From: Naegleria gruberi
Taxonomy: Eukaryota
DNA: 64,000 nucleotides
Assembly (NCBI GenBank): GCA_000004985.1
Contig: GG738863.1
Reading direction: 5' to 3' (one strand)
Shown here: in pieces, positions 39,672 to 64,000 of the stretch
Numbering within the stretch: position 1 is the first letter of the stretch
Layout of the letters: each line of letters begins with the position of its first letter
Program-made: the position numbers and the translations under genes
Notes under the pieces: generated by a model
What the model was told of the DNA's origin: nothing
The model's database searches: none
Seen by the model: only the letters and a program-made list of their open reading frames with translations

Positions 39672-40339
39672 ATGGAACCTCTTCCTACATTCGAGGATTT
39701 CTTCAATAGTAAAGTATGTCTTGAAATAAAGAATCAACATGAAGAATTATTAAATAATAATATTTATAATTTTATAGGGAGGAAGTAAAGTCAATCATGA
39801 TGCAGGAATTTATGGAATGACAAATATTCATATGGTTGGAAAAAGTCTAATTAATAAAGGAGCAATATTGAGAGGAGATTTACAAACTATCAAGATTGGA
39901 AAATTAACAATAATTGGAGAAAATGCAATTATTAGACCACCAACTGCAAATTATGGAATGGAATTGATGCAAGATATAGGAGCTTATTTACAATTGTCAA
40001 TCGGAGATCATGTTTATATTGGAGATAATTCTGTTGTACAGGCAGCTGCTATTGGTTCATTTGTGTACATTGGCAAAAATTGTGTTATTGTAAGTTAATT
40101 AGCAGAGGATTATATAGAATTTAGAAATAATTATTTAGGGAGAAAGATGTATTCTAAGCGATTGTTGTAGAGTTGAGGATAATTCTGTTGTTGCTTCTGA
40201 TACTGTTATTCCTACCTTTACTTCATTTTCTGGAAATCCAGCCTTAATGACTGATTCTGATTTACCTGAATCAACAGAAATAACCATGAAAGAATTGACA
40301 ACCAAACTTTATATTCAATATTCTCCAAAAATTATTTGA
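39672..40339 (+). CDS. DCTN5: Dynactin subunit 5 (p25, left-handed beta-helix / hexapeptide repeat), 3 exons
   Basis: Exons are 39672..39713, 39778..40089 and 40139..40339; introns are 39714-39777 and 40090-40138, both phase 0. The product '...SKVNHDAGIYGMTNIHMVGKSLINKGAILRGDLQTIKIG...IIRPP...LSIGDHVYIGDNSVVQAAAIGSFVYIGKNCVI|GERCILSDCCRVEDNSVV...' aligns with human DCTN5 '[41 protein letters not shown]...IRPP...[49 protein letters not shown]'. Confidence 0.8.
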
Positions 40340-40465
40340 ATGTTTATTGTGTTAAACAGTCACCTAGCTGTCCAGCATACCTCTCTGTGAGTCTATTCTT
40401 TAATGTGTCAGTTTGTTGTGTTAACATTGATGACAATGTCAATAGATCTCCTTCAGTAGAAATTT

Positions 40466-42850
40466 CTAAAATCGATTAGATATTAACGAGAGACAATACT
40501 TACGCTGATTAAAAAGTTTAGATTGTGAAGTTTCCAATCCGTCTGTCTCTACAAGTGTTAAAAGATTGTTCACATCCTTAATAGTTGACGACATATTTCT
40601 TCTAATAAAGTCTATTTGTTGGAATGCCTTCTCATTGTTCTTATATTTGAAATTTTCTGTTCTTAGAGAGTTTGATATTCTTCTTTCCTCCTCAATTAAT
40701 CTCAATAACTCTTGCTTCTTTGTTTCGTTATCATCCATAACACCAACAAGTTTCTTTTTGTATTTCTCAACTAGATTTTCCAAAAAGTGGATTCTTTCCT
40801 CTTTTGTCTGCCCTTCTTTGATTTGAACACTTATTTCTTCTTTCACTTGTTCAGTAAAGTCTCTTCTTTCTTCGAGAAGGTGTTGTGTTTGTTTTTTGAA
40901 TCTATCAATTTCTTGCAAATTATTTTCACTGAACAGTTTGAGAGTTCTTATTTCTTGATCCTTTCTCTCTATTAATGCATTGAGTTCCAAAATTTGCTTG
41001 TCTTTTTCTCCATTCTTTCTAATCTCATCCTCTTTGCAAGCAATTAATTCCAGTAACCTTGCTTTCTTTTCCTCGTAGTGAAGCCTTTCTCTTTCAATGT
41101 CAGATCTTAATTCTCTGATTGTCCTGTTATGCTCTTCGATTATTGGCCTCAAATGTTGTCTGTCTTGATCTCTTACTTGAACTTCTTTTTCTCTTAGGTT
41201 TTGGTTGAGCGATTCAATTGTCTTTTTTAAACCCTCAATCACATTTGTATGAGTCTGGGAATCAGAATCCAATTTAACTTGAAGCTCATCTATTCTCTTA
41301 TTTAACTCTGACACAGCTGTATCCTTGCTGCTAGAAATAAATTGAAGGGCTTCAAGCGAGTCTTCCAGAGATTTGTTTTGAGATTCTAAATTGGTATTCA
41401 TTGAGTGCAATTTGATGATCTTATTTCTGAGGTCAATAATTTCCCTGTTCTTCTTTTGAATCTCGTCTATCAATGTTGTTTTAGAAAATTCTTTTTGTTT
41501 AAATAAATTCACATCTATTAAACCTTGTTTATCCTCCCCAAAAGAAATATTCTGTTTCATTGGAGATTCTTTTTTTGGTGTTATTTGAGGCTTAACATTA
41601 GTATTTTCATTAATTGCTGTTCTCGATTTTTTGATTTGTGAAAGAATATTTACAATTTCTCTATCTTCGTTATCTGTGGTATTACCCTCATCATGATTAT
41701 TGAATATTATTGAGGTCTTTTTAGGTCTTGAAGTAGAAATTTTGATTGGTTCAATGTCAGATGTTGCAAACTCCTCAGTAAAGTAGCTGTTTTGCACATT
41801 CTTAATTTTCTCTTGTTGTACCTCTGCCATTTTGAAGGCTTTATCTGTTTTTTCACTCAGTAAAAGTTGTTTGATGAGATCTTCCTTTTCTTTACGAGGT
41901 GAAATTTCAATTTCCTTCATACCAACAGAAATTCCACTTTGTCTTCCTGATTTTTGTTCCGATTCAAAATCATAAGGTTTAAACGAAGGAGGAGTAAAAT
42001 ATGCCGTACTTGGTGTTGTATTTGCTCTTGACATTGTAGATAAGAAAGGATGAGGGGATTTACTAATGTACATTTCCCGATCCCTTGGAGTTAATGTTGG
42101 TGATTCTCTTCTCATTCGTTGTTGTTGTGTTCCAATTTTTTCCTTATTAGCTAAATAATAATAATGATGATGTTCCTCAACAGCTGCTTTGTTATTATTT
42201 GATGATGTATTAAATACAGTTGGAGAGGCTGCTCTTCTCCTAAAGATTGCTGGATCAAACGTTTGAGTTTCTGGCGCAAAATTTGTAGAAGGTGAGCGCG
42301 GTCTGTTTTTTTCTGGGTTTGTATGAGGAACATATTGTTCCGTATTATTGTTGCTTAATGTTGCAGTTGAGGGAGAATATTCATTTGTTGTTCTGTATTG
42401 AGTAGATGAGGCTCTTGGGGAAGAAGGTGAAAGAGAAGGAATTTGTCTTTGAAATTTGATAGCAGAGAAATGACCAGGTGTATGATTGATTGCAAGGGAT
42501 GATGTTGGACGTTCGGCGTCATTTAATAACGTTAGAGAGGGAGAAAGAGAAGGATTATTAGTTGCATAGGTAGTTGGTGTTGAGGTTTTTGAGGAAAACA
42601 CTGTTGGACGAGAATTTGTTGGTGAGGGAGCATATCTATTTGATGAAGATGACGAATGCTCTGCGTAGGGAGATGGTTTAGAAACAAACAATCTTGAAAA
42701 TCCATTTTTCGTTGATTCCAAGTGCATAATTGTTGGGTCATCTCCTGTATGATGATTTTTTAAGGCTGAATTTCTTGCAGGTGATGATGCTTGACTCCTC
42801 TCTCCATAACCCTCATAATTTGATGATGTAAGGAGTGGCATTTTTTTCAA
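40466..42850 (-). CDS. Long coiled-coil protein with a Ser/Thr/Asn/Pro-rich N-terminal region (794 aa)
   Basis: Single ORF. The C-terminal 450 aa are heptad-rich (IDELQVKLDSDSQTH..., ERLHYEEKKARLLELIACKEDEIRK...). The N-terminal 350 aa are low-complexity S/T/P/N. No enzymatic domain. Confidence 0.5.
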   Translation of the reverse strand: MKKMPLLTSSNYEGYGERSQASSPARNSALKNHHTGDDPTIMHLESTKNGFSRLFVSKPSPYAEHSSSSSNRYAPSPTNSRPTVFSSKTSTPTTYATNNPSLSPSLTLLNDAERPTSSLAINHTPGHFSAIKFQRQIPSLSPSSPRASSTQYRTTNEYSPSTATLSNNNTEQYVPHTNPEKNRPRSPSTNFAPETQTFDPAIFRRRAASPTVFNTSSNNNKAAVEEHHHYYYLANKEKIGTQQQRMRRESPTLTPRDREMYISKSPHPFLSTMSRANTTPSTAYFTPPSFKPYDFESEQKSGRQSGISVGMKEIEISPRKEKEDLIKQLLLSEKTDKAFKMAEVQQEKIKNVQNSYFTEEFATSDIEPIKISTSRPKKTSIIFNNHDEGNTTDNEDREIVNILSQIKKSRTAINENTNVKPQITPKKESPMKQNISFGEDKQGLIDVNLFKQKEFSKTTLIDEIQKKNREIIDLRNKIIKLHSMNTNLESQNKSLEDSLEALQFISSSKDTAVSELNKRIDELQVKLDSDSQTHTNVIEGLKKTIESLNQNLREKEVQVRDQDRQHLRPIIEEHNRTIRELRSDIERERLHYEEKKARLLELIACKEDEIRKNGEKDKQILELNALIERKDQEIRTLKLFSENNLQEIDRFKKQTQHLLEERRDFTEQVKEEISVQIKEGQTKEERIHFLENLVEKYKKKLVGVMDDNETKKQELLRLIEEERRISNSLRTENFKYKNNEKAFQQIDFIRRNMSSTIKDVNNLLTLVETDGLETSQSKLFNQRKYCLSLISNRF

Positions 42851-42987
42851 AATGACTTGCTTGACGTTAAGAAAAATGGAGGGAAGATGTTACTAAACTC
42901 TCTCAATTAATATGAGAGGTTCTGTAAATGGTTGCAGTTCAGTTTTCAAAGAGGAAGAAATAATGGATTTGCCAAGAATATATTTAT

Positions 42988-44073
42988 TTACGATACTCTT
43001 TCAGAACTTTCTGTCATTTCAATATCTTGGACTCGTCTTTGTCTATTGACTTTTTCACTTGGAATGTCAGCAGAGAAGATGTTGCTACTTTCAAAATCAG
43101 AAAGCATAAAACTGTTGATATACTTTGGGACTGATTGAGAGAGAAAATTGTCCCTCATATCAACATCATTATCAGTGTCGTGTTTTGAGGAAAATTGACT
43201 ATTAGTTGAGGAAAATTGGTAGGAGCTTTTCTTACTTGTCTTGCCTGGTGAGGAGAGAGGTCTCTTGTTATTTCCAACTGCTTGTGTAGTAGTTGATGAT
43301 TGGAAAAAGGTAGAAGTGGAGGAAAGAAGTGGAGGAGGAGCTGTTGCACTGCTGTGGAATCTCTTTTGTCTATTAAGAATGGAAGTTGTCTTCTTTGGAC
43401 CTAGAGAATACTTTGGACTGCAACTGTTGGTGGTATTAGAAGTGGTTGGAGGTGAGCTGGTATGTTGTTTGGAAGGTGAAACAAGGAGTGAGGATAAGTT
43501 ATTTGAAGGGAAACACTCTGGAGAAAGTGAACGGGTAGTAGAAAGCAAGCTAGTTAGAGAAATGTCTGAGACTGTACTAGAAGTGGTGGAAGAGGTTGAG
43601 AGAGCATCATATGATCTGGCTCTTCTCTGTGAGAGGTACCTTTCTTTTCTTTCATTAAAAACTTCAGCCTTCAAACAGACACAAAACTTTGGAACGGAAA
43701 CAGTTTCACATTGTTTGTGAGTTATGGTATGGTCAATTGAATTAGTCTTTTTGTTTTCAATTTCAATTTGAACTAAATCTTCACATTCATCTTCATCAAA
43801 ATGGCCTAAACCAACAATTGTTCCGACCTTACCATGCAACATTGGATCAAGTGTTTGTAATATTTCAAACTCTTCTGGAACAATGATAAGAACTAAATCA
43901 TTTAAACGAAGTAAAAGTGAAGTGAGCTTGTGATGAACAAACTCAATTCTCTGTTTGTTATCTTTGTCATCAGTGGTGGATGATGAATCATCTTCAATAG
44001 TACTGCCGTGTCTTGAATTACTACTAGAAGGCTTGTAATTAATAAGTCCTTTGAACTGTTTTGTAGGCTTCAT
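42988..44073 (-). CDS. Hypothetical Ser/Thr-rich protein (361 aa)
   Basis: ORF with a structured N-terminal 150 aa ('LLLRLNDLVLIIVPEEFEILQTLDPMLHGKVGTIVGLGHFDEDECEDLVQIE') followed by S/T-rich low complexity. No family assigned. Confidence 0.4.
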   Translation of the reverse strand: MKPTKQFKGLINYKPSSSNSRHGSTIEDDSSSTTDDKDNKQRIEFVHHKLTSLLLRLNDLVLIIVPEEFEILQTLDPMLHGKVGTIVGLGHFDEDECEDLVQIEIENKKTNSIDHTITHKQCETVSVPKFCVCLKAEVFNERKERYLSQRRARSYDALSTSSTTSSTVSDISLTSLLSTTRSLSPECFPSNNLSSLLVSPSKQHTSSPPTTSNTTNSCSPKYSLGPKKTTSILNRQKRFHSSATAPPPLLSSTSTFFQSSTTTQAVGNNKRPLSSPGKTSKKSSYQFSSTNSQFSSKHDTDNDVDMRDNFLSQSVPKYINSFMLSDFESSNIFSADIPSEKVNRQRRVQDIEMTESSERVS

Positions 44074-45881
44074 GTCGATTGAGTAAAAAGTGAGTTGACT
44101 ATTCAGTTAGATGTAATAGAGAGATTAGAGTGAACGCTGTTAATAACTAGCAGGTTGTTGTTGTTGTATGGTTACTTGTTGTTGTAGTCAGCAAAGGCTT
44201 GATAAAAACGCAACACACGATAAGGCTTAAAGTGGACAGATCAAGGCTACTTTCCGCTAATGTTGTTGTATGAATGCTCAGAGCAGAAGTGAGGGAGCAG
44301 TGTGTTGTTTTTTTTTAAGAACAATCTTGAAAGAAATGTGTAGTGAATTTTGATTGTTGTTTGTTGTTTTTGCATCAAGCGATTCTTCTTGATTTACGAA
44401 GAGCGGCAAGCATGAAAATTACTTTTTGATGGTTTTGGACTTTGTGTGCTTCACGGTCATTTACTTGACAATTGACAGGTAAGCCAATGTGAGCTCTATA
44501 AGGAAGACATCTTCACATATTAACTTCACTCAAGGAATGAAAAACCACATTAAACAATATTCTATCTCTTTTATATTAAATGACAAAGATTCCACTTTTT
44601 CATTTGGAACTATCTTTGTTAATGAGATTTCACATTCAATTGAGTAAAGTTTTATTCGAAACACTTGTAATTCAATAAAATTGAGTTCCATTGTCATTGT
44701 ATTAAATGATTAATTAACAATTAGTACAGACCAAGCATAGTCCCTGCATTCAACATTAAAAGCGAAGAGTCTTTTTCTTACAAAAAATGTGAAAAGGATT
44801 ATTTCACAAATTGTGCGAGTGTCTTTTCAACAAGCTTTGTGTGAATACATGCTTGCTATATTTGGTCTATCTATTCAATAAATTATTTGAAAACATTTTT
44901 CATTGGGGAAATGAGTTGCTTTTTAGTTAAAACTTGCTTTTGAGATTCACTTCCGTATGTGTAAGATTTTGCAGGAAATTTAATAGTGTGAAGTTGTATT
45001 TGTTAAAAAGGTATATCTTCTTTTTAATTTTACTGTAATTCACTTTTGACTACAGTTATTCGAAACTTGTGGAAAGCTTTTAATAAACAAAATTTCACAT
45101 TTTGTAACATATTTGGTGGCCATAAATGTTAATTTGTTGAAATAAAATGGCATTGGTTCATTATTGTCCTTTTGTGGATGTATGCACTCTCTTTGGGATT
45201 TAAAATTGTCAATATTAGAAAGTTGACTTTTACAATGACATTTCTAGTTCGATTTCTTGTATTTTCACCAAACTTGGACAGCACTACAGTATTTAATTGA
45301 AATACAACAATTTCTCAGCCTTAAATTCCATCAACTTTATTGTAATAAAATTTGAATATTCCTAAAATCAACTATTGACCAACTTATTATATTCTATCAC
45401 AATAGTTCCTTTACCAATGAATTATACACAATAATTTAGCACGTATTCCTCCACATTAAATGTTTGTTCTCTGATTAAGTGTATTTTGGCTGAATGCTGC
45501 CAAACTATTCAATATTTCATTTTACCATTTATCCTAAACTTGACAATGTCAAACATCAGATAATGTATAAATGATAAAGTTGAGTGTAAAACTAGCTCCA
45601 TTGAATGAGTTCCTTGAGCAATGATTTTGAATTGGGAGAAAACATTGGATAATTTGGACATGTTTTCAAGGGTTTTGGGCCAATACGAAACAAGTCGATA
45701 TTCCCAAATTAAATACGAAAAATTAGTGAAATTATTGCACGATTATTGGTATCAAGAACCAACTGAAAGAAGTAATATTTTCAGTTATTTCAAGTTATTA
45801 GAAAATATCAAAACAACAAATAGAATGAAAACTTGACATTTTGCTTTTCATTGTAAAAGAATTGAAATTGATTAAAAAAAA

Positions 45882-47741
45882 ATGGACTTGACCAATCTCA
45901 CACCCGATCTCAAATTAAAACTCCTATCAATGCTTTCATCTTTAAATGATGCTGATGATAGTAAAAAGAAAAATCAATCATCTAAAAAATCATCATCCGA
46001 CAACGATTATTATCATCACGAATTCTCACAACAAGATAAATTATTTATTCTTGATTTAATTAATTCTATTCAAAATGATGGTTTCTTTGTGAAAGATGAT
46101 TTTCAAAATGAAGAATTAACTAGTAATACTAAAGATCAATTATTAAATATGAAGAATGAATTAAATCAAGCAGGTATAGGTGAAGGATCAGCTAAATATG
46201 TTAATACTGAATTAAGAGGAGATTTATTTAAATGGTTATCTGATTCCGATGTACCTGATAAAACTCCATTGAAGGAAACTCTTTCAAAATTGAATAATTT
46301 TAGACGTGTATTAAATTATTTATTCGATTTGGAATTAGATAGAAATAGTATTCAAGTTGCTTTTTATACTAATGGAGCTAGATATATTAGACATGCTGAT
46401 GCTTCACCACTTCAATCATCTGATAGAAGATTAACATTTTTATTATATTTCAATAAGGAAATTAATGGTGGATCATTGAAATTATATAGAAAGGAAAGAT
46501 CATTTGATAACGATATTAGAAAACCATATAATTATCAATTTAAGGAAAATGCAGAGAATGAAGCAACAGTTCAACCATTATTTAATAGACTTTTGAGCTT
46601 TTCAAGTGAATATTATCATGAAGTTTTACCATCACTCTCAGATAGATTTTCATTAACAATGTGGATGTATGGGAAAAAGGATGTGTGGAAGCAAATTAAT
46701 GATTTAACACAAAGTACAATATTTATTTCTATTTGTTCATATAGAGATTCTGAGCTACAACACACTATTAATGACATGTTTAAAAAGGCTTATTATCCAA
46801 ATAGATTGCGTGTCGGTATATGTTTACAAGTTGAAGAAAATGATTCAATTAATGATGTATTCGATTATAGAAATCAATCTTACTCTAAACAAATTAAGGA
46901 AATTGTTTTAAATTACAAACAATCACAAGGCCCATGTTTTGCTCGATATTTAATTCAACAAAATTTATATGATCAAGAAGATTATTACTTACAAATTGAT
47001 TCACATATGAGATTTGATGAAGGATGGGATGTTACACTAATCAAACAATTGAAACAAGTTGATGATGGAAGCAAACATTCCATTCTATCTACATATCCAG
47101 TAGGATATGAACAACCAAATCAAATTCCCGAACATGCCAAACCAACAATCATTGTTGCTAAAACATTTTCAAAGGATGATAATGGATTTGAAATGGTTAG
47201 ATTGGGAGCTAAAATTGTTTTGGAAAATCATATTGAAAAACCAATTCCTTCACTATTCTTTGCAGCAGGTTTTGCATTCAGTTTTGGAAAGATTGTAAAA
47301 GAATGCCCCTATAATGAATTACCATTTATTTTCTTTGGTGAGGAAATGTACATGCTTAAAAAATTCATATCTAAAGGATACAAGTTATTCTCACCAACTG
47401 AGCCAATCATTTATCACTTGTGGAAGAGAAGTTATAGAAAGGTATTTTGGGAGTTATCAAATGAATCTATGGAAGCTAAACTAACATTTGATAATTGGAA
47501 TAGTTTTATTGAAAATTTTGGAAAATTAACACAAACTCAAATCATTCAAATTGATGAAAGCACGGCAAAGGAGCACGATTCAGAACAAATCAAAGTTATT
47601 AGACAATCATCTCAAGAAGATGTAATGAATTATCTTGGAATGACATTATCCAATAATGAAACAGATGAATTTTCTGAATATTGTGGAATTGATTTCAAGA
47701 ATCGTACAATCAGTGAGAAAGCTCTCAACGGTGAAATTTGA
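45882..47741 (+). CDS. Fused prolyl 4-hydroxylase (Skp1 PhyA/PHD-like 2OG-Fe(II) oxygenase) and GT-A-fold GlcNAc-transferase-like (Gnt1/GT60-GT27-like, DxH) protein
   Basis: 619-aa single ORF with no signal peptide. The N-terminal domain has the 2OG-oxygenase triad 'RHADAS' (HxD), '...YYHEVLP' (H) and 'RFSLTMWMY' (2OG-binding R). The C-terminal domain starts 'IFISICSYRDSE...' like the GT27/GT60 N-terminal beta-strand. It has 'YYLQIDSHMRFDEGWD', matching the DxH metal-binding motif of polypeptide GalNAc/GlcNAc transferases ('LDAH...GWLEP'). Confidence 0.7.
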   Translation: MDLTNLTPDLKLKLLSMLSSLNDADDSKKKNQSSKKSSSDNDYYHHEFSQQDKLFILDLINSIQNDGFFVKDDFQNEELTSNTKDQLLNMKNELNQAGIGEGSAKYVNTELRGDLFKWLSDSDVPDKTPLKETLSKLNNFRRVLNYLFDLELDRNSIQVAFYTNGARYIRHADASPLQSSDRRLTFLLYFNKEINGGSLKLYRKERSFDNDIRKPYNYQFKENAENEATVQPLFNRLLSFSSEYYHEVLPSLSDRFSLTMWMYGKKDVWKQINDLTQSTIFISICSYRDSELQHTINDMFKKAYYPNRLRVGICLQVEENDSINDVFDYRNQSYSKQIKEIVLNYKQSQGPCFARYLIQQNLYDQEDYYLQIDSHMRFDEGWDVTLIKQLKQVDDGSKHSILSTYPVGYEQPNQIPEHAKPTIIVAKTFSKDDNGFEMVRLGAKIVLENHIEKPIPSLFFAAGFAFSFGKIVKECPYNELPFIFFGEEMYMLKKFISKGYKLFSPTEPIIYHLWKRSYRKVFWELSNESMEAKLTFDNWNSFIENFGKLTQTQIIQIDESTAKEHDSEQIKVIRQSSQEDVMNYLGMTLSNNETDEFSEYCGIDFKNRTISEKALNGEI

Positions 47742-48971
47742 ATGTATCAAACAAATAAATCATTTATGAATTCATATTTTCCGATTTCATATTTAACTTC
47801 TTCAAATTGATAGAAATAATTTCATATTGAATTGTTTTCAACTCATCCAACCTTGCCTTTGAATTTAATCTCAATGATGATGGATAAAATTAAGTAATTT
47901 CCTAATNTAATACATCTTTGTTCTTGGTCCAATCAGCATTTTATGCAACATTTTGATTGAATGGTATTAAAATACATTCATTGTTTGATATGATGTTATT
48001 TTGATTAGCTTCCGAAAATCCGAACTGATAAACATGATGATAGTAGAAGTATGCAATTTTTGTAAGAATGTAGAGAGGATTGAAAATTAGGACAATTAAA
48101 TCGTATTATGAACAGGATCCTCAAATTCATCATCACAAATGCACTGAAAATTGAGATCTACAGTTGACTAGTAACAAGATGCTGCATTCAATCAATTTGT
48201 TTACTTTCTGCGGATTAGAGTTTTTAAAAAATTTTACAATGTGAAATGCCAATAGCGGAGTTGACAGGACATTGATCCAATATGACGTCATGTGCTTCCT
48301 CAAATCCTCCGAATAGAAATAAATTATCCAGACAAGTTTGTTGTATTAGAATTTAATCAAGGCAAACACTTGTCCCACCTCTCATATCCTTAATGAACAG
48401 CAATCAACATTTTAATTGATATGATGATTACAAACACATTAAATAAGGCTATAGGATTCAAATCAATGAGAGCTGGAAGGATTTTCTGTTCTGGTTTGTG
48501 TGCCTCCACTTAATCGCCAAAGTGAATCGGCCAAACACATAACAGTAGTAAGCATCAATTTCGCTATAATAAATCCCTTATTATACTGTACAATGAATTG
48601 ATGCTGCAGACCGAGACCGCAACGAGTTTGTTTTACCATCACTAGAAGTGAATTATGCAGAAATGATCAAGGGTTTTGTTTGGTACAGATAAGGAGAGTA
48701 TTAGTTGTAAGAAGAGTCTCTGAAAGCTCCTTAATATTCGAGAGTAAGCGCCTTTTTATGCTTATTCACAGAGACTCGGAGGTTTATACAAATCCGCATT
48801 TAGAAAAATGGCGAAAAAACAAAGCGCGTCACTGTTACAAGAGAAAGAGTCAAAATCGCTTGCGCTTTGCTCAGAAGAACCACTGTTTACAAAACCATCT
48901 TGTATTAAAGCTCGGATGTTATTGTTCACTTTTAAAAAAAAAGCAACAACACCATCTGTATAACATAAAAA

Positions 48972-50348
48972 ATGAGATCTTCTCTTAAACTCACCAAGAT
49001 CCTCTCCAAGGCTTCTACTCAACAAAGATATTACTCTGCTGAATTAAAGTCAATTTTGGCTGCTCAAATTCCACAAAAGCAAGCCGAACTCAAGGAAATT
49101 AAAGAAAAATTTGGTAATGTCTCCCTCGGTGATACTACTGTTAGAATGGCCTATGAAGGTATGAGAGGTATCAAGGGTTTAGTCACTGAAACTTCTCTCT
49201 TGGATCCTGAAGAAGGTATCAGATTCAGAGGTTACAGCATTCCAGAATGTCAAGAAAAGTTGACAAAGGCTCAAGGTGGTCAAGAACCTCTCCCAGAAGC
49301 TATGTTGTGGTTGTTGTTAACTGGTGAAGTCCCAACTCCTCAACAAACCGAAGGTTTGAGAGCTGACTTGCAACAAAGAGCCCAACAAGTTGATCCAAAA
49401 ACTGTTGAATTCGTTAAATCCATCCCAAATAATCTCCACCCAATGACACAATTCTCTATGGCTATCTTGGCTTTGCAAAAGGACTCTAAGTTTGCTCAAG
49501 CTTATCAAGATGGTGTTCACAAGAGAGAATACTGGATTCATACTTATGAAGATGTTTTGAACTGTATTGCTCGTTTGCCACTTGTTGCTTCTATTATCTA
49601 CAGAAAGACTTATCACAATGGTCAATATATTAAGAGTGATTCATCATTGGATTGGGCTGCCGATTATGCCTCAATGATGGGTTTCGGTGGAAACAAGCAA
49701 ATTGCTGAATTGTTCCGTTTATATTTGTCTATTCACACTGACCATGAAGGTGGTAACGTTTCTGCTCACGCTACTCACCTTGTTGGTTCTGCTCTCTCCG
49801 ATCCATACTTGTCACTCTCTGCTGGTATGAACGGTTTGGCTGGTCCATTGCATGGTTTGGCCAATCAAGAAGTTTTGAAATGGTTGAAGGAAGTTCAAAA
49901 GGATTTGAATGGAAGAGAACCAACTAAGGAAGTTTTAAGACAATTAATTTGGGATACTTTGAATGGTGGACGTGTCGTTCCAGGTTACGGTCACGCTGTT
50001 TTGAGAAAGACTGACCCAAGATATACTTGTCAAAGAGAATTTGCTCAAAAGTACATGAAGGACGATCCATTGTTCAAATTGGTTTCTACTTTATATGAAG
50101 TTGTTCCTGATGTTTTGACTGAACACGGAAAGACCAAGAATCCATGGCCAAACGTTGATGCCCACTCTGGTTGTTTGTTGCAACATTACGGACTCGTTGA
50201 AGAAGATTATTACACTGTCATGTTTGGTGTTTCTCGTGGTATTGGTGTTTTGTCTAGTTTATTGTGGGACAGAGCTTTGGGTCTCCCAATTGAAAGACCA
50301 AAATCTGTGACTACTGAATGGATTAAGAAACACGTCAAGATGAACTAA
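48972..50348 (+). CDS. CIT: Citrate synthase, mitochondrial
   Basis: 458-aa single exon with an N-terminal presequence-like '[15 protein letters not shown]'. Diagnostic citrate synthase segments are '[30 protein letters not shown]', '[12 protein letters not shown]', '[12 protein letters not shown]' and '[16 protein letters not shown]'. Confidence 0.95.
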
Positions 50349-55088: not shown

Positions 55089-56470
55089 ATGAAAAAACCA
55101 AAAAACCTCAATAACAAGAAGGCTAATAAAAAGCCCTTCAGACAACAACAACAAACCACCACCACCACCTCAACAACAAAAGCCTTATCAGAACTAAACA
55201 CCTCACCATCAATAACAACACCATATAAATATGAAAATGGTGATTCACCCACAACAACACCAACCTTAGTTAATAAGCGTTCAATTCAAGATGATAGCAT
55301 GGTTATATATACAAATAATACAATCAATCAATCACCAATTCCTAACTCAACACCACCTCCTCCTAGTAGTATTATTCACAATGATGGTCAATCAAGTATT
55401 AATCAAAGTATAATGGAAGAAGAATATGATGATTATATTCATATTCCTTCTCAAATTCAAAATATGACATTAAATTCAAGTAATACATCAGATTATGAAT
55501 ATTTTGGATCACCAATGATGACCATGATGAGTACTCCACCTTCAATAGCCTATCAACAAAGATTAGAACATTTACAATTAATTGATGATTCTGATAATAC
55601 TCAATTTTATTCCCCTAATACTCCTTTACCAATTCCATCTTCAACTCCATGCATTCTTAAGAAATTATCAAATCAAAGTTCTATTGAGGGAAATGAAGAT
55701 ATTTCCAATAGTTTTAATGTTTCAAATAATTTGTCATTTAATTCAACTAATAGTACACTAAATTCATCTAGGATAAATGACTCTAGTTTACAATTAGATA
55801 TTTCGCAAATTAATGAAATGTCCAATATACCCAATTCAGTAATTGAACAAAAATTGAAAGAATTAAAACATCAAGTCAATGGAATTCATCATAATTTAAA
55901 ATCATCACCAATACACAAAGTTGATAATCCAACTCATTCACTTAATAAGAATTATACTGCAACTGTAGATACAGATAGATTATTATCATTTCGATCTTCA
56001 ACTAGTAGAAGATCTATGCATGTACATAGAGATGATATATTGAGATATGTGAGAGCAATACAGGATCCAGATGATCAAGTAAGAAAGAGAGCTGTAAGTA
56101 TTTAAATATTATTGATAAATATATACTTAATAATTCATATTAGATTGAAATTGTAAAATTGTTGGATGCAACAATGAAAGCTCCATTACCTGAAAAATCA
56201 AAAAAGAATTCAAATTTCGATCATATTCAAGCTAGAGTTTCACATAATCCAAAAACAATTCCAAAAGAAGAAACCAATACTGATTTATATAGTGATTTTA
56301 AATCTAAATTGAAAATGACAAGGAAAGCAACAAGTAGATTTAGAGAATGTTTTGATAATTCCTCTTCAACTTTATCGCTGGAGCAAAAAACACTTTCAAG
56401 AAGAGAACAAGTTGAATTGGAAAAACAAGAATTTTTAAAAAAATGTCCACGAAAAAGTCATAACAAATAA
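55089..56470 (+). CDS. Hypothetical Ser/Asn/Thr-rich protein, 2 exons
   Basis: Exon 1 is 55089..56093 (GCT|GTAAGT). Exon 2 is 56144..56470 after the acceptor TTAG. The in-frame join is '...DDQVRKRA|IEIVKLLDATMKAPLPEKSKK...'. Low-complexity protein. Confidence 0.4.
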
Positions 56471-56566
56471 ATTATTATACAAATGTTTCAATAAGATTAA
56501 TTTTCAATGCAACAGATAATAAACTATTTATGCGATTAAAATAATTTAAAATTCAAATTAAAAAAA

Positions 56567-57241
56567 ATGAGTCAAGATAAAAAGGTAGAACAACATATTG
56601 CGGATGAAATTTTTAAACCTGATGTCATTGAAATTTCGGAATCACATATTAATGAAAATAAGAATGTAATAATAACAAAACCATTAAATGATAAACAAGA
56701 TGCACCTCAAGTACAATTCCGAATGGAATTTGATGAATTAAGTGAAAAGAAAGATAAAAGATTAAAAGATATTTTAAGAAATGATGAATATCAATTTAAT
56801 TATCCTGTATTTAATTTTGATCAAAAAGGATATCGTCGTATTCCATATGTTGATCCTAGATTTGCAACATTTGAACAACAAGTTGAAGAATCATTTTCAT
56901 TAAATGTTGCCAAAATGAGAGATATTGCATCTTCACATGAAAAGCCTTTAATTTTATCATCTTTAGCAACAGCTGGTTTATTATGGAAGAAACCAAAAGA
57001 TAAAATTACAGCTGCCATGTTATTTATTACTAGTACATTGGGTGTTAGTTATTTATACTTTTCAAATATGGGATTTGGTAATATGATTAATAGAGTTAAT
57101 ATTGAAGCTTTTAGAATTTTAAATCAAGAAAAGAAAGCTTATTTACTTAGTGACCAAGAAGTTCAAACTTCTCAACAATTAATTAAATCTCAAATTGATA
57201 AAGAAATGGAAGAATTTAAAGAAAAGTACAAACAAGAATAA
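56567..57241 (+). CDS. Hypothetical protein (224 aa) with one predicted TM segment
   Basis: ORF with ordinary codon usage. The hydrophobic stretch is 'ITAAMLFITSTLGVSYLYF'. No recognised domain. Confidence 0.4.
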   Translation: MSQDKKVEQHIADEIFKPDVIEISESHINENKNVIITKPLNDKQDAPQVQFRMEFDELSEKKDKRLKDILRNDEYQFNYPVFNFDQKGYRRIPYVDPRFATFEQQVEESFSLNVAKMRDIASSHEKPLILSSLATAGLLWKKPKDKITAAMLFITSTLGVSYLYFSNMGFGNMINRVNIEAFRILNQEKKAYLLSDQEVQTSQQLIKSQIDKEMEEFKEKYKQE

Positions 57242-57474
57242 TAACACTCTAAATTTAGGGTTTAACAAATAATTATCATAATAGGATGGGATAATTGAAT
57301 TGGATTTTGATTGTAAATATTTCAACATCATTTACAGGTTATATTATTGGGTGTATGATACACTTTGTTTGTACACTTTATTCACACATTTTGTAAACAA
57401 CATGCATGATAGAATTATTATAATAATAATATTGAATATTAATATATTTAATTACTTTTGTTCATGTTCTTGTT

Positions 57475-58589
57475 TCAATAAGATGGCCAATCTCTTACAT
57501 GCTTCATCCATTTGTTCTTAGAAGCAGTATAAAAGATGTCTNNNNNNNNNNNNNNNNNNNNNNNNNNNNNNNNNNNNNNNNNNNNNNNNNNNNNNNNNNN
57601 NNNNNNNNNNNNNNNNNNNNNNNNNNNNNNNNNNNNNNNNNNNNNNNNNNNNNNNNNNNNNNNNNNNNNNNNNNNNNNNNNNNNNNNNNNNNNNNNNNNN
57701 NNNNNNNNNNNNNNNNNNNNNNNNNNNNNNNNNNNNNNNNNNNNNNNNNNNNNNNNNNNNNNNNNNNNNNNNNNNNNNNNNNNNNNNNNNNNNNNNNNNN
57801 NNNNNNNNNNNNNNNNNNNNNNNNNNNNNNNNNNNNNNNNNNNNNNNNNNNNNNNNNNNNNNNNNNNNNNNNNNNNNNNNNNNNNNNNNNNNNNNNNNNN
57901 NNNNNNNNNNNNNNNNNNNNNNNNNNNNNNNNNNNNNNNNNNNNNNNNNNNNNNNNNNNNNNNNNNNNNNNNNNNNNNNNNNNNNNNNNNNNNNNNNNNN
58001 NNNNNNNNNNNNNNNNNNNNNNNNNNNNNNNNNNNNNNNNNNNNNNNNNNNNNNNNGCATCACGAATTTTATCCATTTCTTCTTTTTGTTCATTATTATT
58101 ATTATTACTATTAATATTATTATTATTATTATGATTATTATTAAAAAGATCCAAGGCTTGTAATTGTACATTGTATGGATTTAAAAACATTTCAAAGGCT
58201 TTTGTTAAACCATCTTGAGAACCACTTGTACAAATAACATCCCACAATTGTTTGTTTTCATCGGATGGTAATTGATGAGTTACTTGTTGATGTTTTCTCA
58301 TATATTGTGTGAGTGAAGGTAAACCTTGACTTGGATGATATTGTAATCCATCACTTAATTCTTTACCTCCAATTTCTAGGCTTGTTTGATTATTTAAATC
58401 AACTTTAATAGATTGAAATGGAAATGTTTGAGAGTTTGGTAAACCACCTGCAAGTGAAATCATACCAGGTAAATTCATAATTGGCATGAGTGCACGAATT
58501 GGACTTGGTTTTCTCAATTTTGAAATTACTGAAAAGAATGGTGTAAAATCTGTGATACGATTCACTGCTGCTGTTGTTGTTGAGGCCAT
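57475..58589 (-). CDS. Class-I aminotransferase (kynurenine/alpha-aminoadipate aminotransferase, ARO8/AADAT-like), interrupted by an assembly gap
   Basis: The N-terminal 145 aa before the gap read 'FFSVISKLRKPSPIRALMPIMNLPGMISLAGGLPNSQTFPF...LQYHPSQGLPSL...DVICTSGSQDGLTKAFEMF', matching the KAT/AadAT N-terminal arm and core. The 515-N gap at 57542-58056 removes the PLP-lysine region. The short post-gap coding segment has an uncertain frame; the 57475 end is tentative. Confidence 0.6.
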
Positions 58590-58795
58590 TTTTTTAATTT
58601 GTTTTTTTCAAAGGCTATGAAAAATCAAAAAAGGTTAGATTCACTTATTTGTCAATGATGTTGAATTCTCTGAGTTATTGTTGGTGAAGAGTTAAGGGAA
58701 TTAAATTGAGTTCAGGTGGTCCAGAATCCTTAATTTTTGTTTTGTTTCTATCAGGCTATAAATGATGTTTGGCGCCAAAATCAACTACAAAAAAA

Positions 58796-59908
58796 ATGAG
58801 CAGAAACGACTATTATGATTCTGATGAGGAAGTAATTGAAGAAAACAACACAATGGTGACCAATAAGAGAATGAGCAAGGAAGATGTGGATCATATCATT
58901 GAGGAAATAAAGGCTCATTTAGGAGAGTTGTGTTTATCAAGAACAGGTCTCGGACACATCTTTGCTTCTTTAGATTTATCGGTAGGTTTTATCAAGCAAT
59001 GATGAAATTGATAACTTATTAAAATTGTGTAGAACTTGAAAATATCAAATATTAGTGATGGATTTATTATTTCGGAATTTTATCCTCAATTACAAAATAT
59101 TAATCTAAGTGGAAATGAATTAACTAGTTTAGAATGTTTGACCAATTTAAAAACACTTGTAAAATTGAATGCTTCAAATAATAATTTAGAAACACTACTT
59201 GATTTTATTATTGATAAAAATCCACTCAAGGTCTTTTTAGCTGAAGCAAATTTTGAAAATAATTCTCTTTCTAGATTTGATACTAATTTACATCAATTCT
59301 CAATTTCATTGAAAAGATTGAATATTTCTAATAATTCTATTAATTATGATTTATCAGAATTAAATACATTATCTAATTTAATAGAATTGAATATTTCTAA
59401 TAATCAAATTACTCATCTCAATCTTTCCAAATTGAAATATTTAAAGATTTTAAATGCAGAAAGGAATAACATTAATTCAGTTACAGGTATATGTCCAGAT
59501 TCACTTCAACAATTAAATTTGAAAGAAAATTCTCTATCAAAACTATCAGAATTTCAAGTATTTAAATATTTGTATAGATTAAATTTAGATAATAATCAAA
59601 TTAATGATTTTAATGAATTGAGTTATTTAAATAATTTAAGTTATCTATATGAAATATCATTACTTGGTAATACATTTGATTTTGGTCAAAGTACATTGGA
59701 AGAAATTGCCAATATTTACAAAAATTCAATTCTCTATCAAATACCACAAATTGTTGTTTTGGATGAATTTGAAGTGAGTAGTGAAGAGAAGGTTAGAGCT
59801 AAAATATATATTGAAACCATTGTTGAAAATATTCAATTAGCAGAGGCAGCAGAAGCAGCAGTAGCAACAATAGGTGAATCCAATCCTGCAAATAATGAAG
59901 GTAATTAA
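58796..59908 (+). CDS. Leucine-rich-repeat protein (SDS22-like LRR array), 2 exons
   Basis: Exon 1 is 58796..58981. The intron is 58982-59032 (GTAGGT..TGTAG). Exon 2 is 59033..59908. There are at least 8 LRRs ('NINLSGNELTSLECLTNLKTLVKLNASNNNLETL', 'LNISNNQITHLNLSKLKYLKILNAERNNI', 'LNLKENSLSKL...'). A C-terminal LRRcap-like part follows. Confidence 0.6.
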
Positions 59909-59909
59909 T

Positions 59910-60734
59910 TTATCTTAATGTACTAAACATTGAAAATTGTAAAGTATCAAATTGATTTGAAGCATTTGAATTATTTAAAGATAAATCTATTGGATTAATA
60001 TTTGAAGAATGATCTAAATGTTCAACTGGACCATAAACTTTAACTTGTCTCACATGAGTATCTCTACCATTTTGATGATTTTGTGAAATTACAATTTGTA
60101 ACATGTTACATCTACAATGTTCCAATAAATCTTTTTCTGAACTATTTAACATGTTAATATTTACATAACCAACTGGTTCTTCTAATTCAATAGTTTTAAT
60201 TTGTATCAAATCATGAAAATTACTTCCACATTTAATACTAATAACTTGTGGTGTATAGGATTCATCTTTTTTATAATCCAAATATATTGCTACTTCTTGT
60301 ATGGTTAATACTTTATGAAATTGTATATTAATTGTATGTGGTTGTGGTCCATCTGATTGCCAATAGGTTTCTAAATTATCATCTCTCAATTCTTCAACTC
60401 CATTTCCTTGTTTTGCTGTTGATACACTCCACACTGCATATTTACCAATTTCTATTAGTGATGAATGTTGTTGTTGTTGTTGTTGATTGGAATTGGAATT
60501 GGAATTGGAATTTTTATTATAGGAAGGAATTGAATGATTGTTGGAGTCTTCATGTTGTTGTGATGGAGGTAGAAAAGATGAATCGGTACTCAAAATGTTT
60601 AGAAATATATTATCAAAAGTATGATCCAATACATTTGTTGTATTACCACTACCACTACTACTTGATGATGATGAATTGGTGGTAGTAGTAGCTGAAGATG
60701 TTTGAACTGAAGAGAATTGAGCAAGCCTAAACAT
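59910..60734 (-). CDS. APC10: Anaphase-promoting complex subunit 10 (APC10/DOC1) with an Asn/Ser/Gln-rich N-terminal extension
   Basis: The DOC domain reads 'EIGKYAVWSVSTAKQGNGVEELRDDNLETYWQSDGPQPHTINIQFHKVLTIQEVAIYLDYKKDESYTPQVISIKCGSNFHDL'. Its stop codon lies 2 bp from the convergent LRR gene stop. An (AATTGG)n hexamer repeat encodes an NSNSNS run. Confidence 0.85.
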   Translation of the reverse strand: MFRLAQFSSVQTSSATTTTNSSSSSSSGSGNTTNVLDHTFDNIFLNILSTDSSFLPPSQQHEDSNNHSIPSYNKNSNSNSNSNQQQQQQHSSLIEIGKYAVWSVSTAKQGNGVEELRDDNLETYWQSDGPQPHTINIQFHKVLTIQEVAIYLDYKKDESYTPQVISIKCGSNFHDLIQIKTIELEEPVGYVNINMLNSSEKDLLEHCRCNMLQIVISQNHQNGRDTHVRQVKVYGPVEHLDHSSNINPIDLSLNNSNASNQFDTLQFSMFSTLR

Positions 60735-60929
60735 TTTTTATTTAAATACGACGATGAAAAAAATACCTCAACAAGACCATCCTCCGGATACGGAAGGGAG
60801 TAATTTGCTTGCTGACAGGATTTTTGTGTTAGAGAGAGCAATTGAAACCTACCAAAAGGAAAACAATAATCTCCGTGACTATCTTCAACAACTTGTAAAT
60901 ATATGTAATGGTCACCCGTTATGAATAAT

Positions 60930-62398
60930 NNNNNNNNNNNNNNNNNNNNNNNNNNNNNNNNNNNNNNNNNNNNNNNNNNNNNNNNNNNNNNNNNNNNNNN
61001 NNNNNNNNNNNNNNNNNNNNNNNNNNNNNNNNNNNNNNNNNNNNNNNNNNNNNNNNNNNNNNNNNNNNNNNNNNNNNNNNNNNNNNNNNNNNNNNNNNNN
61101 NNNNNNNNNNNNNNNNNNNNNNNNNNNNNNNNNNNNNNNNNNNNNNNNNNNNNNNNNNNNNNNNNNNNNNNNNNNNNNNNNNNNNNNNNNNNNNNNNNNN
61201 NNNNNNNNNNNNNNNNNNNNNNNNNNNNNNNNNNNNNNNNNNNNNNNNNNNNNNNNNNNNNNNNNNNNNNNNNNNNNNNNNNNNNNNNNNNNNNNNNNNN
61301 NNNNNNNNNNNNNNNNNNNNNNNNNNNNNNNNNNNNNNNNNNNNNNNNNNNNNNNNNNNNNNNNNNNNNNNNNNNNNNNNNNNNNNNNNNNNNNNNNNNN
61401 NNNNNNNNNNNNNNNNNNNNNNNNNNNNNNNNNNNNNNNNNNNNNNNNNNNNNNNNNNNNNNNNNNNNNNNNNNNNNNNNNNNNNNNNNNNNNNNNNNNN
61501 NNNNNNNNNNNNNNNNNNNNNNNNNNNNNNNNNNNNNNNNNNNNNNNNNNNNNNNNNNNNNNNNNNNNNNNNNNNNNNNNNNNNNNNNNNNNNNNNNNNN
61601 NNNNNNNNNNNNNNNNNNNNNNNNNNNNNNNNNNNNNNNNNNNNNNNNNNNNNNNNNNNNNNNNNNNNNNNNNNNNNNNNNNNNNNNNNNNNNNNNNNNN
61701 NNNNNNNNNNNNNNNNNNNNNNNNNNNNNNNNNNNNNNNNNNNNNNNNNNNNNNNNNNNNNNNNNNNNNNNNNNNNNNNNNNNNNNNNNNNNNNNNNNNN
61801 NNNNNNNNNNNNNNNNNNNNNNNNNNNNNNNNNNNNNNNNNNNNNNNNNNNNNNNNNNNNNNNNNNNNNNNNNNNNNNNNNNNNNNNNNNNNNNNNNNNN
61901 NNNNNNNNNNNNNNNNNNNNNNNNNNNNNNNNNNNNNNNNNNNNNNNNNNNNNNNNNNNNNNNNNNNNNNNNNNNNNNNNNNNNNNNNNNNNNNNNNNNN
62001 NNNNNNNNNNNNNNNNNNNNNNNNNNNNNNNNNNNNNNNNNNNNNNNNNNNNNNNNNNNNNNNNNNNNNNNNNNNNNNNNNNNNNNNNNNNNNNNNNNNN
62101 NNNNNNNNNNNNNNNNNNNNNNNNNNNNNNNNNNNNNNNNNNNNNNNNNNNNNNNNNNNNNNNNNNNNNNNNNNNNNNNNNNNNNNNNNNNNNNNNNNNN
62201 NNNNNNNNNNNNNNNNNNNNNNNNNNNNNNNNNNNNNNNNNNNNNNNNNNNNNNNNNNNNNNNNNNNNNNNNNNNNNNNNNNNNNNNNNNNNNNNNNNNN
62301 NNNNNNNNNNNNNNNNNNNNNNNNNNNNNNNNNNNNNNNNNNNNNNNNNNNNNNNNNNNNNNNNNNNNNNNNNNNNNNNNNNNNNNNNNNNNNNNNNN
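60930..62398. other. Assembly gap: 1469 N, the largest of six N-runs
   Basis: An uninterrupted run of n. The other gaps are 13245-13294, 20863-20942, 25744-25793, 34587-34834 and 57542-58056. ORF-track entries made of X residues across these gaps are artefacts. Confidence 0.99.
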
Positions 62399-62960
62399 CT
62401 AATGCTTGACAAGATAGAGAGTCACCCCAATCACATACCTAACCTAGATTGGAACTCTATCAACGTCAGCTACCTTAAATCCCATTTGTCTCCTAAATCT
62501 AAATATTATATTTGGAGAAACTCTTCAAATGCCCACATCAATTTTGGTGAGGGTAAAAGTTTCTGTCATGATTGTAACACAGAATCTGACCTTAATCACT
62601 ATATTCATGAATGCCCTGCTCTGGATAGTGCCAGATACTTTTGCTTGTCAAAAATATCTGATATTCTTGATCAGAGAGAGTGTAAACTCACTCATATTCA
62701 ATTCAGACCAGAAAAGCATCACCATGTACTCTTCTTCCACCATTCTGGAACCACATTCTTCGAAGATGGATACGTACAACAATACCCAGACATTGCAGAG
62801 AAATGGCCTGAGATCCAGGGAGCCATTTCTAACTTTGTCGGCCGCTCCTATAGATATTATTATATTGACTCAATGTAAATTTACAAATTCAAAGAGAATC
62901 TGAATAGATTCGTTATTATTGCAATAAAAGATTTTTTATTTAAATAAAATTAAACGATTT
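62399..62960 (+). mobile_element. Non-LTR (LINE-like) retrotransposon 3' fragment: C-terminal end of ORF2 with a CCHC zinc knuckle, followed by a 3' UTR with an AATAAA signal
   Basis: ORF 62402..62878 is open from the gap edge. It contains 'CHDCNTESDLNHYIHEC' (C-x2-C-x7-H-x4-C), the zinc finger characteristic of the ORF2 C-terminus of non-LTR retroelements. The region is visibly less AT-rich than its surroundings. AATAAA at about 62925 is followed by A-rich sequence. The 5' remainder lies in the 1469-N gap. Confidence 0.5.
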
Positions 62961-63979: not shown

Positions 63980-64000
63980 AAGAAGAATTGAAAATAATAA

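What the first reader, a model, noticed from the sequence alone, without database searches (positions are those of the whole stretch)
45882..47741. Single ORF fusing a Skp1-type prolyl 4-hydroxylase domain to a DxH GT-A GlcNAc-transferase-like domain
Residues 1-250 carry a 2OG-Fe(II) oxygenase core (HxD 'RHADAS', distal His 'YYHEVLP', Arg 'RFSLTMW'). Residues 270-619 look like a GT27/GT60-type GT-A glycosyltransferase with the 'IDSH...GWD' motif instead of DxD. There is no signal peptide, so both domains are predicted cytoplasmic. In Dictyostelium the first two steps of Skp1 modification are catalysed by separate proteins, PhyA and Gnt1: Pro hydroxylation, then alpha-GlcNAc addition. A covalent fusion would couple the two steps on one polypeptide.
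Basis: partly seen in the sequence, partly recalled or inferred. Interest (0 to 1): 0.6.

Follow-up and report, generated by a model that had tools for sequence, protein, structure and literature searches.

The report
Known Naegleria phyA-gnt1 fusion gene
The ORF is a real single gene of the amoeba Naegleria gruberi that joins an oxygen-dependent proline hydroxylase to the sugar transferase acting next on the ubiquitin-ligase subunit Skp1, but this fusion, in this very species, is already listed in the literature and a related enzyme has been studied biochemically.

Summary
Window 45882-47741 (+) is one uninterrupted 619-aa ORF. It has a PHD/PhyA-type 2OG-Fe(II) prolyl hydroxylase domain (aa ~50-264; H171-x-D173, H246, R255, Y189). 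A 13-residue linker joins it to a Pfam PF11397 (GT60, Gnt1-type) GT-A domain (aa ~278-520; D373-S374-H375). There is no signal peptide or TM segment.

The window is Naegleria gruberi NEG-M. N. fowleri has a syntenic single-ORF orthologue (63% identity, each catalytic domain ~72%). The protein is collinear with the Pythium ultimum PhyA-Gnt1 enzyme across both domains (34% identity, E 4e-82).

Florimond et al. [quoted passage not shown] Their Table S2 lists N. gruberi ("in contig 20 of scaffold 19") as phyA-gnt1, and every fragment I searched in their Fig. S2 'Ng' row matches this ORF, through the junction. The Pythium fusion was characterised by van der Wel et al. 2019 (Glycobiology 29:705).

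Not tested: whether Naegleria Skp1 keeps the target proline, and any enzymatic activity.

Verdict: a correct reading of an already known gene. Interest is low.

The parts
45882..47741 (+). Complete phyA-gnt1 ORF: 619 codons plus a TGA stop, with no intron needed
   Evidence: single-ORF orthologue in N. fowleri (L001:10001-11989)
45882..45947 (+). Conserved N-terminal helix (aa 1-22, MDLTNLTPDLKLKLLSMLSSLN). It is not a signal peptide.
   Evidence: 73% identical to N. fowleri; related motif in other fused homologues; helix 8-22 in the model
45948..46028 (+). Low-complexity, poorly conserved segment predicted to be disordered (aa 23-49)
   Evidence: pLDDT below 50 at aa 29-39; 26% identity to N. 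fowleri
46029..46673 (+). PhyA/PHD-type 2OG-Fe(II) prolyl 4-hydroxylase domain (aa 50-264)
46392..46400 (+). H171-A-D173, proximal His and Asp of the Fe(II) facial triad
   Evidence: Aligns with 'khrd' of DdPhyA, i.e. His191/Asp193; invariant in A1
46446..46448 (+). Y189, predicted 2OG C-5 carboxylate ligand (DdPhyA Tyr212 equivalent)
   Evidence: Alignment; residue role from PMC7864055; invariant. The residue mapping is my inference from the alignment.
46617..46619 (+). H246, distal His of the facial triad
   Evidence: Aligns with HEVL of DdPhyA, i.e. His266; invariant
46644..46646 (+). R255, 2OG-binding arginine (DdPhyA Arg276 equivalent)
46674..46712 (+). Short inter-domain linker (aa 265-277, KKDVWKQINDLTQ), mostly helical in the model (helix 268-277)
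   Evidence: helix 268-277 and block-mean pLDDT of about 93 over aa 261-280; 31% identity to N. fowleri; stramenopile homologues have about 30-40 more residues here
46713..47441 (+). Gnt1-type (GT60, PF11397) GT-A glycosyltransferase catalytic domain (aa 278-520)
46998..47006 (+). D373-S374-H375, the DxH motif (predicted Mn2+/UDP-sugar binding)
   Evidence: Invariant in 62 homologues. The metal-binding role is inferred from GT27/GT60 knowledge.
47331..47345 (+). FFGEE 484-488, an invariant GT-domain motif of unknown exact role
47415..47417 (+). H512 (YHLW), invariant His and a candidate third metal ligand by analogy with GT27
   Evidence: Invariant. The role is inference only.
47442..47738 (+). 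C-terminal extension (aa 521-619) ending in the conserved tail EYCGIDFKNRTISEKALNG
   Evidence: Tail motif shared with N. fowleri, oomycetes and other fused homologues; pLDDT about 96 at the tail, below 50 at aa 523-532

Best explanation
This is the Naegleria gruberi orthologue of the PhyA-Gnt1 dual-function enzyme (I recall it being called Phgt in Pythium). It is a soluble cytoplasmic protein.

Proposed mechanism, step 1: the N-terminal PHD-type 2OG/Fe(II) dioxygenase domain uses O2 and 2-oxoglutarate to make 4-hydroxyproline on one proline near the C-terminus of Skp1, the adaptor of SCF ubiquitin ligases.

Step 2: the C-terminal GT60 GT-A domain, with a DxH metal site, transfers alpha-GlcNAc from UDP-GlcNAc onto that hydroxyproline. 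This primes the Skp1 glycan.

Shown here: the ORF, both domains with all catalytic residues, the absence of a secretory signal, orthology and synteny with N. fowleri, and collinearity with the Pythium protein.

Inferred from characterised relatives in Dictyostelium, Toxoplasma and Pythium: the substrate (Skp1), both chemistries and the O2-sensing role.
For: Anatomy:
- Domain calls.
- Best solved-structure relative by sequence is DdPhyA.
- H171/D173/H246/R255/Y189 align with DdPhyA His191/Asp193/His266/Arg276/Tyr212.
- DxH 373-375 is invariant in 62 homologues.
- No TM segment.

Orthology:
- The N. fowleri orthologue is a single ORF followed by the same genes: citrate synthase, PTEN-like, unknown, TIP41.
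- Both catalytic domains are about 72% identical between the two species.
- BLASTP against the Pythium/Globisporangium ultimum fused protein covers both domains in one HSP (34% identity, E 4e-82).

Literature:
- N. gruberi is listed as phyA-gnt1 in clade A1.
- All four sequence fragments searched occur in the published 'Ng' alignment row, which reads through the junction.
Against: - No Naegleria Skp1 sequence could be obtained, so the presence of the target proline is unverified.
- No other Skp1-pathway glycosyltransferase was seen among the ORFs scanned in the window.
- There are no expression or activity data for Naegleria.
- The exact ORF product is not in the 15-billion-protein collection, so the deposited gene model, if any, differs from the ORF.
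- From my recollection of its abstract, the Pythium enzyme showed no kinetic processivity. The paper is not held, and physical coupling therefore need not mean channelling.
Confidence: 0.85

Rival explanations
1. The protein is the same bifunctional enzyme, but in Naegleria it modifies a protein other than, or in addition to, Skp1.
For: The substrate was not tested. Naegleria Skp1 could not be retrieved and is not in the window. PHD-family enzymes have switched substrates elsewhere: HIF-alpha in animals and EF-Tu in bacteria.
Against: The hydroxylase falls in the published A1 clade with the validated Skp1 hydroxylases. In that paper, linkage to a Gnt1 domain is taken as support for a Skp1 role. 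DdPhyA is the best sequence match among solved structures.
Confidence: 0.08
2. The ORF is an artefact that joins two separate genes, phyA and gnt1, which are expressed as separate proteins.
For: The exact 619-aa product is not in the protein collection. One metagenome gene call (P0248, 242 aa) holds only the hydroxylase part.
Against: - The frame is continuous, with a 13-residue, mostly helical linker.
- N. fowleri has the same single ORF in three independent assemblies.
- 68 of 120 homologues carry both domains, including transcript-derived sequences.
- P0248 ends because its contig departs from the window sequence at window 46604, inside the hydroxylase domain and before H246, not at the domain junction.
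Confidence: 0.02
3. The C-terminal half is a Golgi mucin-type ppGalNAc-T or pp-alpha-GlcNAc-T whose signal-anchor exon was missed.
Against: - Identity to GT27 is only 13%.
- The Pfam family is PF11397, with no GT2/GT27 or ricin-lectin match.
- A cytoplasmic-type hydroxylase domain sits in front in the same frame.
- There is no TM segment.
- The N-terminus is conserved in orthologues.
Confidence: 0.01
4. The gene is a decaying or catalytically dead copy.
For: None, apart from the lack of expression data.
Against: All catalytic residues of both domains are intact and invariant. Both domains are about 72% identical to N. fowleri, while the linker and low-complexity parts have drifted to 26-31%. 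That is the pattern expected under purifying selection on both active domains.
Confidence: 0.02

Closest known systems
Pythium (Globisporangium) ultimum PhyA-Gnt1 dual-function prolyl 4-hydroxylase/GlcNAc-transferase (van der Wel, Gas-Pascual and West 2019, Glycobiology 29:705; P0026 here)
   Same: Same domain order (hydroxylase then GT60). It is collinear over both domains (34% identity, E 4e-82). It shares the catalytic residues, the DxH motif, a conserved N-terminal helix and the C-terminal 'G(I/V)xF...I...A..G' tail.
   Different: The Naegleria linker is only about 13 residues, against roughly 45-50 Pro/Ser-rich residues in oomycetes. Naegleria has a longer insert at aa 521-590. The taxon is Discoba rather than a stramenopile. 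There is no biochemistry for Naegleria.
Dictyostelium discoideum PhyA (PDB 6t8m) and Gnt1, encoded as separate genes
   Different: In Dictyostelium the two activities are on two polypeptides. Here they are one. I did not compare the DdGnt1 sequence directly.
Animal HIF prolyl hydroxylases (PHD2/EGLN1, TaPHD) and bacterial EF-Tu prolyl hydroxylase (PPHD)
   Different: They act on different substrates and have no glycosyltransferase attached. The published phylogeny puts them in clades A2 and C, and the Naegleria protein in A1.
GT27 polypeptide GalNAc-transferases (e.g. 8v9q mouse GalNAc-T1)
   Different: Only 13% identity. From my own knowledge they are Golgi type II membrane proteins with a lectin domain, and both features are absent here.

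Membership tests
PhyA-type (PHD clade A1) Skp1 prolyl 4-hydroxylase | HxD...H Fe(II) facial triad | tested here: met
   H171, D173 and H246 align with DdPhyA His191, Asp193 and His266. They are invariant in A1.
PhyA-type (PHD clade A1) Skp1 prolyl 4-hydroxylase | 2OG C-5 carboxylate ligands Arg and Tyr (DdPhyA Arg276, Tyr212) | tested here: met
   R255 and Y189 align and are invariant.
PhyA-type (PHD clade A1) Skp1 prolyl 4-hydroxylase | Double-stranded beta-helix fold of the PHD type | tested here: met
PhyA-type (PHD clade A1) Skp1 prolyl 4-hydroxylase | Closer to validated Skp1 hydroxylases than to other P4H clades | tested here: met
   By sequence, 6t8m scores E 5.8e-16 against 5e-10 for PPHD and about 3e-8 for PHD2. 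The published maximum-likelihood tree places 'Ng' in A1. By fold alone the PHD-type enzymes are not separable.
PhyA-type (PHD clade A1) Skp1 prolyl 4-hydroxylase | The organism's Skp1 carries the target proline (Dd Pro143 equivalent) | tested here: inconclusive
   There is no Skp1 in the window (tblastn).
PhyA-type (PHD clade A1) Skp1 prolyl 4-hydroxylase | O2/2OG-dependent hydroxylation of Skp1 | not testable with these tools
   Needs an enzyme assay or mass spectrometry.
Gnt1 (CAZy GT60, Pfam PF11397) Skp1 Hyp alpha-GlcNAc-transferase | Match to the family profile above the curated cutoff | tested here: met
   PF11397 scores 206.5 bits against a cutoff of 21, E 1.1e-60.
Gnt1 (CAZy GT60, Pfam PF11397) Skp1 Hyp alpha-GlcNAc-transferase | DxH in place of DxD | tested here: met
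   D373-S374-H375 is invariant in 62 homologues.
Gnt1 (CAZy GT60, Pfam PF11397) Skp1 Hyp alpha-GlcNAc-transferase | GT-A fold related to GT27 | tested here: met
Gnt1 (CAZy GT60, Pfam PF11397) Skp1 Hyp alpha-GlcNAc-transferase | Cytoplasmic: no signal peptide or membrane anchor (this separates it from the Golgi GT60 pp-alpha-GlcNAcTs) | tested here: met
   The maximum KD-19 value is 1.42 and lies in a conserved core segment. The N-terminus is a conserved amphipathic helix followed by the hydroxylase domain.
Gnt1 (CAZy GT60, Pfam PF11397) Skp1 Hyp alpha-GlcNAc-transferase | UDP-GlcNAc:Hyp-Skp1 transferase activity | not testable with these tools
   Needs an enzyme assay.
PhyA-Gnt1 fusion (dual-function enzyme) | Both domains in one reading frame, hydroxylase first | tested here: met
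   Of the 68 fused homologues, 61 have the same order.
PhyA-Gnt1 fusion (dual-function enzyme) | Collinear homology to the Pythium ultimum protein | tested here: met
   A single BLASTP HSP covers aa 59-527, E 4e-82.
PhyA-Gnt1 fusion (dual-function enzyme) | The fusion is conserved in a sister species | tested here: met
   N. fowleri has a 662-aa single ORF with syntenic downstream genes.
Golgi GT27 ppGalNAc-T (considered and rejected) | N-terminal signal anchor, GT2/GT27 profile and ricin-type lectin domain | tested here: not met
   There are no such Pfam matches, no TM segment, and only 13% identity.

The most novel reading that the evidence does not exclude
Naegleria may be a special case of the fusion. 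Its linker is only 13 residues and mostly helical, and the two-domain model is confident (pTM 0.86). This could fix the two active sites in one rigid unit that hydroxylates and GlcNAc-ylates Skp1 processively, unlike the long-linker Pythium enzyme (for which, as I recall, no processivity was found).

The fusion also appears to have arisen more than once. Dinoflagellates carry the reverse order, Gnt1 then PhyA. Because animals lack Gnt1, the N. fowleri orthologue would be a parasite-specific oxygen-sensing target.
Probability: 0.12. Interest if true: 0.4.

Novelty: already known. Interest (0 to 1): 0.15.

Why it matters
The Skp1 hydroxylation and glycosylation pathway is the protist counterpart of animal HIF oxygen sensing, and it tunes SCF ubiquitin ligases. 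A fused PhyA-Gnt1 argues that both enzymes are dedicated to one substrate. Its presence in Discoba supports an ancient origin of the pathway.

These points have already been made in the literature, with N. gruberi included (PMC6437050). This window therefore adds only modest detail:
- exact coordinates of an intronless ORF whose exact product is not in the protein collection searched;
- a syntenic N. fowleri orthologue;
- a very short linker;
- a confident two-domain model.

The N. fowleri orthologue could matter as a drug-target idea, but nothing here tests that.

Tried and rejected
1. Finding the substrate. The big protein search returned 7991 Skp1 homologues, and none of the listed 120 is named as Naegleria. 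So the target proline could not be checked.

2. Reading the key papers. PMC6774341 (Glycobiology 2019), PMC4623824, PMC4813455 and the 2010 BBA review are not held. What I say about the Pythium enzyme's kinetics and its name rests on my memory of the abstract.

3. An idea I abandoned: 'the gene is unannotated in N. gruberi'.
   - The exact product is absent from the collection, and no N. gruberi hit appeared.
   - However, the homologue search is erratic. One search missed P0248 (99% identical). One search missed N. fowleri P0001.
   - The UniProt accessions D2VD03 (gene at 42991-44073) and D2VD05 (citrate synthase) leave D2VD04 for this interval. A differing model may therefore exist.
   - The 2019 paper cites a genomic contig rather than a gene identifier.

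4. Two minus-strand look-ups used wrong coordinates (Met dropped, stop included). They were repeated correctly.

6. A neighbour-joining tree of the GT domains is crude. I use it only to note that Naegleria groups with other short-linker fused sequences and that the reverse-order fusions form their own group.

Full report
**Observation.** Window 45882-47741 (+) is a single ATG-to-TGA ORF of 619 codons. An in-frame stop lies three codons upstream of the ATG. Pfam gives PF13640 (2OG-FeII_Oxy_3, aa 158-263, E 3.4e-16). It also gives PF11397 'Glycosyltransferase (GlcNAc)' at E 1.1e-60, 206.5 bits against a cutoff of 21. The highest 19-residue hydropathy mean is 1.42, and it falls in a segment conserved across the homologues, so there is no signal anchor or TM helix.

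**Organism and orthologue.**
- Six other ORF products in the window, including the neighbouring citrate synthase (48972-50348) and a disulfide isomerase (23405-24835), are exact matches to Naegleria gruberi NEG-M proteins XP_002678141.1, XP_002678133.1 and others, on a 467,654-bp contig.
- The best homologue of the ORF is N. fowleri FDP41_002796 (P0001, 662 aa, 63% identity).
- In three independent N. fowleri assemblies it is also one uninterrupted ORF. It is followed by citrate synthase, a PTEN-like phosphatase, an unknown gene and TIP41 on the opposite strand. The window has the same order.
- Between the two species the hydroxylase domain is 72% identical and the GT domain 73%. The linker (31%) and the low-complexity stretch (26%) have drifted. 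That is the pattern expected if both catalytic halves are under selection within one protein.

**The hydroxylase half.**
- Among solved structures the best sequence match is Dictyostelium PhyA (6t8m, E 5.8e-16, aa 53-263). It is ahead of Pseudomonas PPHD (5e-10) and human PHD2 (about 3e-8).
- In that alignment H171, D173, H246, R255 and Y189 sit opposite the residues that PMC7864055 defines as the DdPhyA metal and 2OG ligands: His191, Asp193, His266, Arg276 and Tyr212. All five are invariant in a 10-sequence alignment from Naegleria to brown algae.
- DdPhyA has an unusually short C-terminus. It ends right after ...TTWIY, which is exactly where the linker begins here (...TMWMYG-KKDVW).

**The transferase half.**
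- D373-S374-H375, W382-D383, FFGEE 484-488 and H512 are invariant in 62 homologues.
- An AlphaFold2 model built on that alignment has mean pLDDT 88.2 and pTM 0.86.
- So this half is a GT-A enzyme of the GT60/GT27 kind, but it is not a GT27 member.

**Is the fusion real and general?**
- Of the 120 listed homologues, 68 carry both domains.
- They come from oomycetes (including Pythium/Globisporangium ultimum, P0026), brown algae, diatoms, green algae, a haptophyte and dinoflagellates. Amoebozoan relatives (Soliformovum, Protostelium) have a stand-alone Gnt1.
- BLASTP against the P. ultimum protein gives one HSP through both domains (aa 59-527, 34% identity, E 4e-82).
- The N-terminal helix and the C-terminal tail motif are also shared.
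- Naegleria differs in its very short linker, about 13 residues and mostly helical in the model. The median spacing between the aligned domain ends is 36 residues, against 12-15 in N. fowleri and P0002, the nearest relatives, and oomycete linkers are Pro/Ser-rich.

**Prior knowledge.**
[quoted passage not shown] - Florimond et al. [quoted passage not shown]
- Their Table S2 lists 'Ng, Neagleria [sic] gruberi, in contig 20 of scaffold 19, DOE JGI, phyA-gnt1, Excavate, Percolozoa, group A1'.
- All four ORF fragments I searched for occur in their Fig. S2 'Ng' row. The row reads through the junction: '...LSDRF--SLTMW*MYGKKDVWKQINDLTQSTIFISICSYRD-gnt1'.
- The exact gene has therefore already been recognised as this fusion. 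Its Pythium counterpart has been studied at the bench. That paper is not held. My recollection of its abstract is that both activities were shown and no processivity was seen.

**Mechanism.** The most likely function has two steps on one Skp1 proline: O2- and 2OG-dependent 4-hydroxylation by the N-domain, then alpha-GlcNAc transfer from UDP-GlcNAc to the hydroxyproline by the C-domain. Both happen in the cytoplasm, as in Dictyostelium and Toxoplasma (described). What is shown here is the anatomy, the conservation and the homology. The substrate and the chemistry are inferred.

**The weakest link.** I could not obtain a Naegleria Skp1 to check the target proline. No other pathway glycosyltransferase was seen among the window ORFs scanned.

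**Rivals.**
- A Golgi transferase with a missed exon is excluded by the conserved N-terminus, the in-frame hydroxylase, the lack of a TM segment and the Pfam family.
- Two separate genes is very unlikely given the N. fowleri ORF and the many fused relatives, some derived from transcripts.
- The only 'split' gene call (P0248, 242 aa) comes from a metagenome contig. That contig is 98% identical to window 39973-46604 and then changes abruptly to unrelated sequence, inside the hydroxylase domain. This is a chimera or an insertion, not a domain boundary.
- A different substrate remains formally possible at about 8%.

**Verdict.** However, the finding is an already known gene of a known kind. Interest is 0.15.

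Noticed in passing
P0027 (Biecheleria cincta transcript), P0070 (Durusdinium trenchii), P0034-P0036, P0038, P0051: Seven homologues carry the two domains in the reverse order, Gnt1 first and PhyA second. They group together in a crude tree of the GT domain. This suggests the two genes were fused at least twice independently. P0070 also has a PF01795 methyltransferase domain.
   Followed up: partly
P0089, P0101, P0102 (also P0080, of unnamed origin): PF11397 (Gnt1-family) domains occur in bacteria of the Magnetococcales. In P0089, P0101 and P0102 they are fused to a PF13489 methyltransferase domain, at 34-38% identity (31% for P0102) to the Naegleria GT domain. Two further Magnetococcales proteins, P0096 and P0108, have PF11397 alone.
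   Followed up: no
L004 (ENA ERZ929261, contig k127_125275) against window 39973-46604: A metagenome contig is 98.07% identical to the window over 6.6 kb. It then switches to unrelated sequence at window 46604, which is codon 241 of the ORF, giving a truncated 242-aa gene call. This is either an assembly chimera or an insertion in a related N. gruberi-like strain.
   Followed up: partly
window 44074-48971; UniProt D2VD03 / D2VD05: The exact 619-aa product is not in the 15-billion-protein collection, although six other ORF products of the window are there as N. gruberi entries. Accession order leaves D2VD04 for this interval. The 2019 paper cites a contig, not a gene identifier. The deposited model is therefore probably wrong or different.
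   Followed up: partly
The search for homologous proteins: The homologue search is inconsistent. The full-length query missed P0248 (99% identical over 242 aa). The N-domain query missed N. fowleri P0001 and every other fused homologue. Absence from these lists is therefore weak evidence.
   Followed up: yes
window 7216-9927 (-): A 903-aa protein with ankyrin repeats is named 'F-box domain-containing protein' by UniProt (D2VCY4). It is a likely Skp1 partner lying 36 kb from the Skp1-modifying enzyme. This is probably coincidence.
   Followed up: no
window 1015-2768 (-): Adjacent ORFs on the same strand encode a PfkB kinase (1015-1854) and an Indigoidine_A / pseudouridine-5'-phosphate glycosidase-like protein (1905-2768). 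They may be two exons of one fused pseudouridine-catabolism gene.
   Followed up: no
window 56001-64000: G+C falls from about 31% to 14-26%. Long overlapping ORFs lie on both strands at 60919-62412, which suggests low-complexity AT-rich sequence.
   Followed up: no
window 10289-11722 (+): This ORF consists of seven DUF4116 repeats (E 2e-121).
   Followed up: no
window 42988-45881 against L001:1-10000: Synteny with N. fowleri holds downstream of the fusion gene but not upstream. N. fowleri has a ZUO1-like DnaJ gene there. N. gruberi has a Ser-rich 361-aa ORF on the opposite strand and a 1.8-kb stretch with no ORF of 80 aa or more.
   Followed up: no
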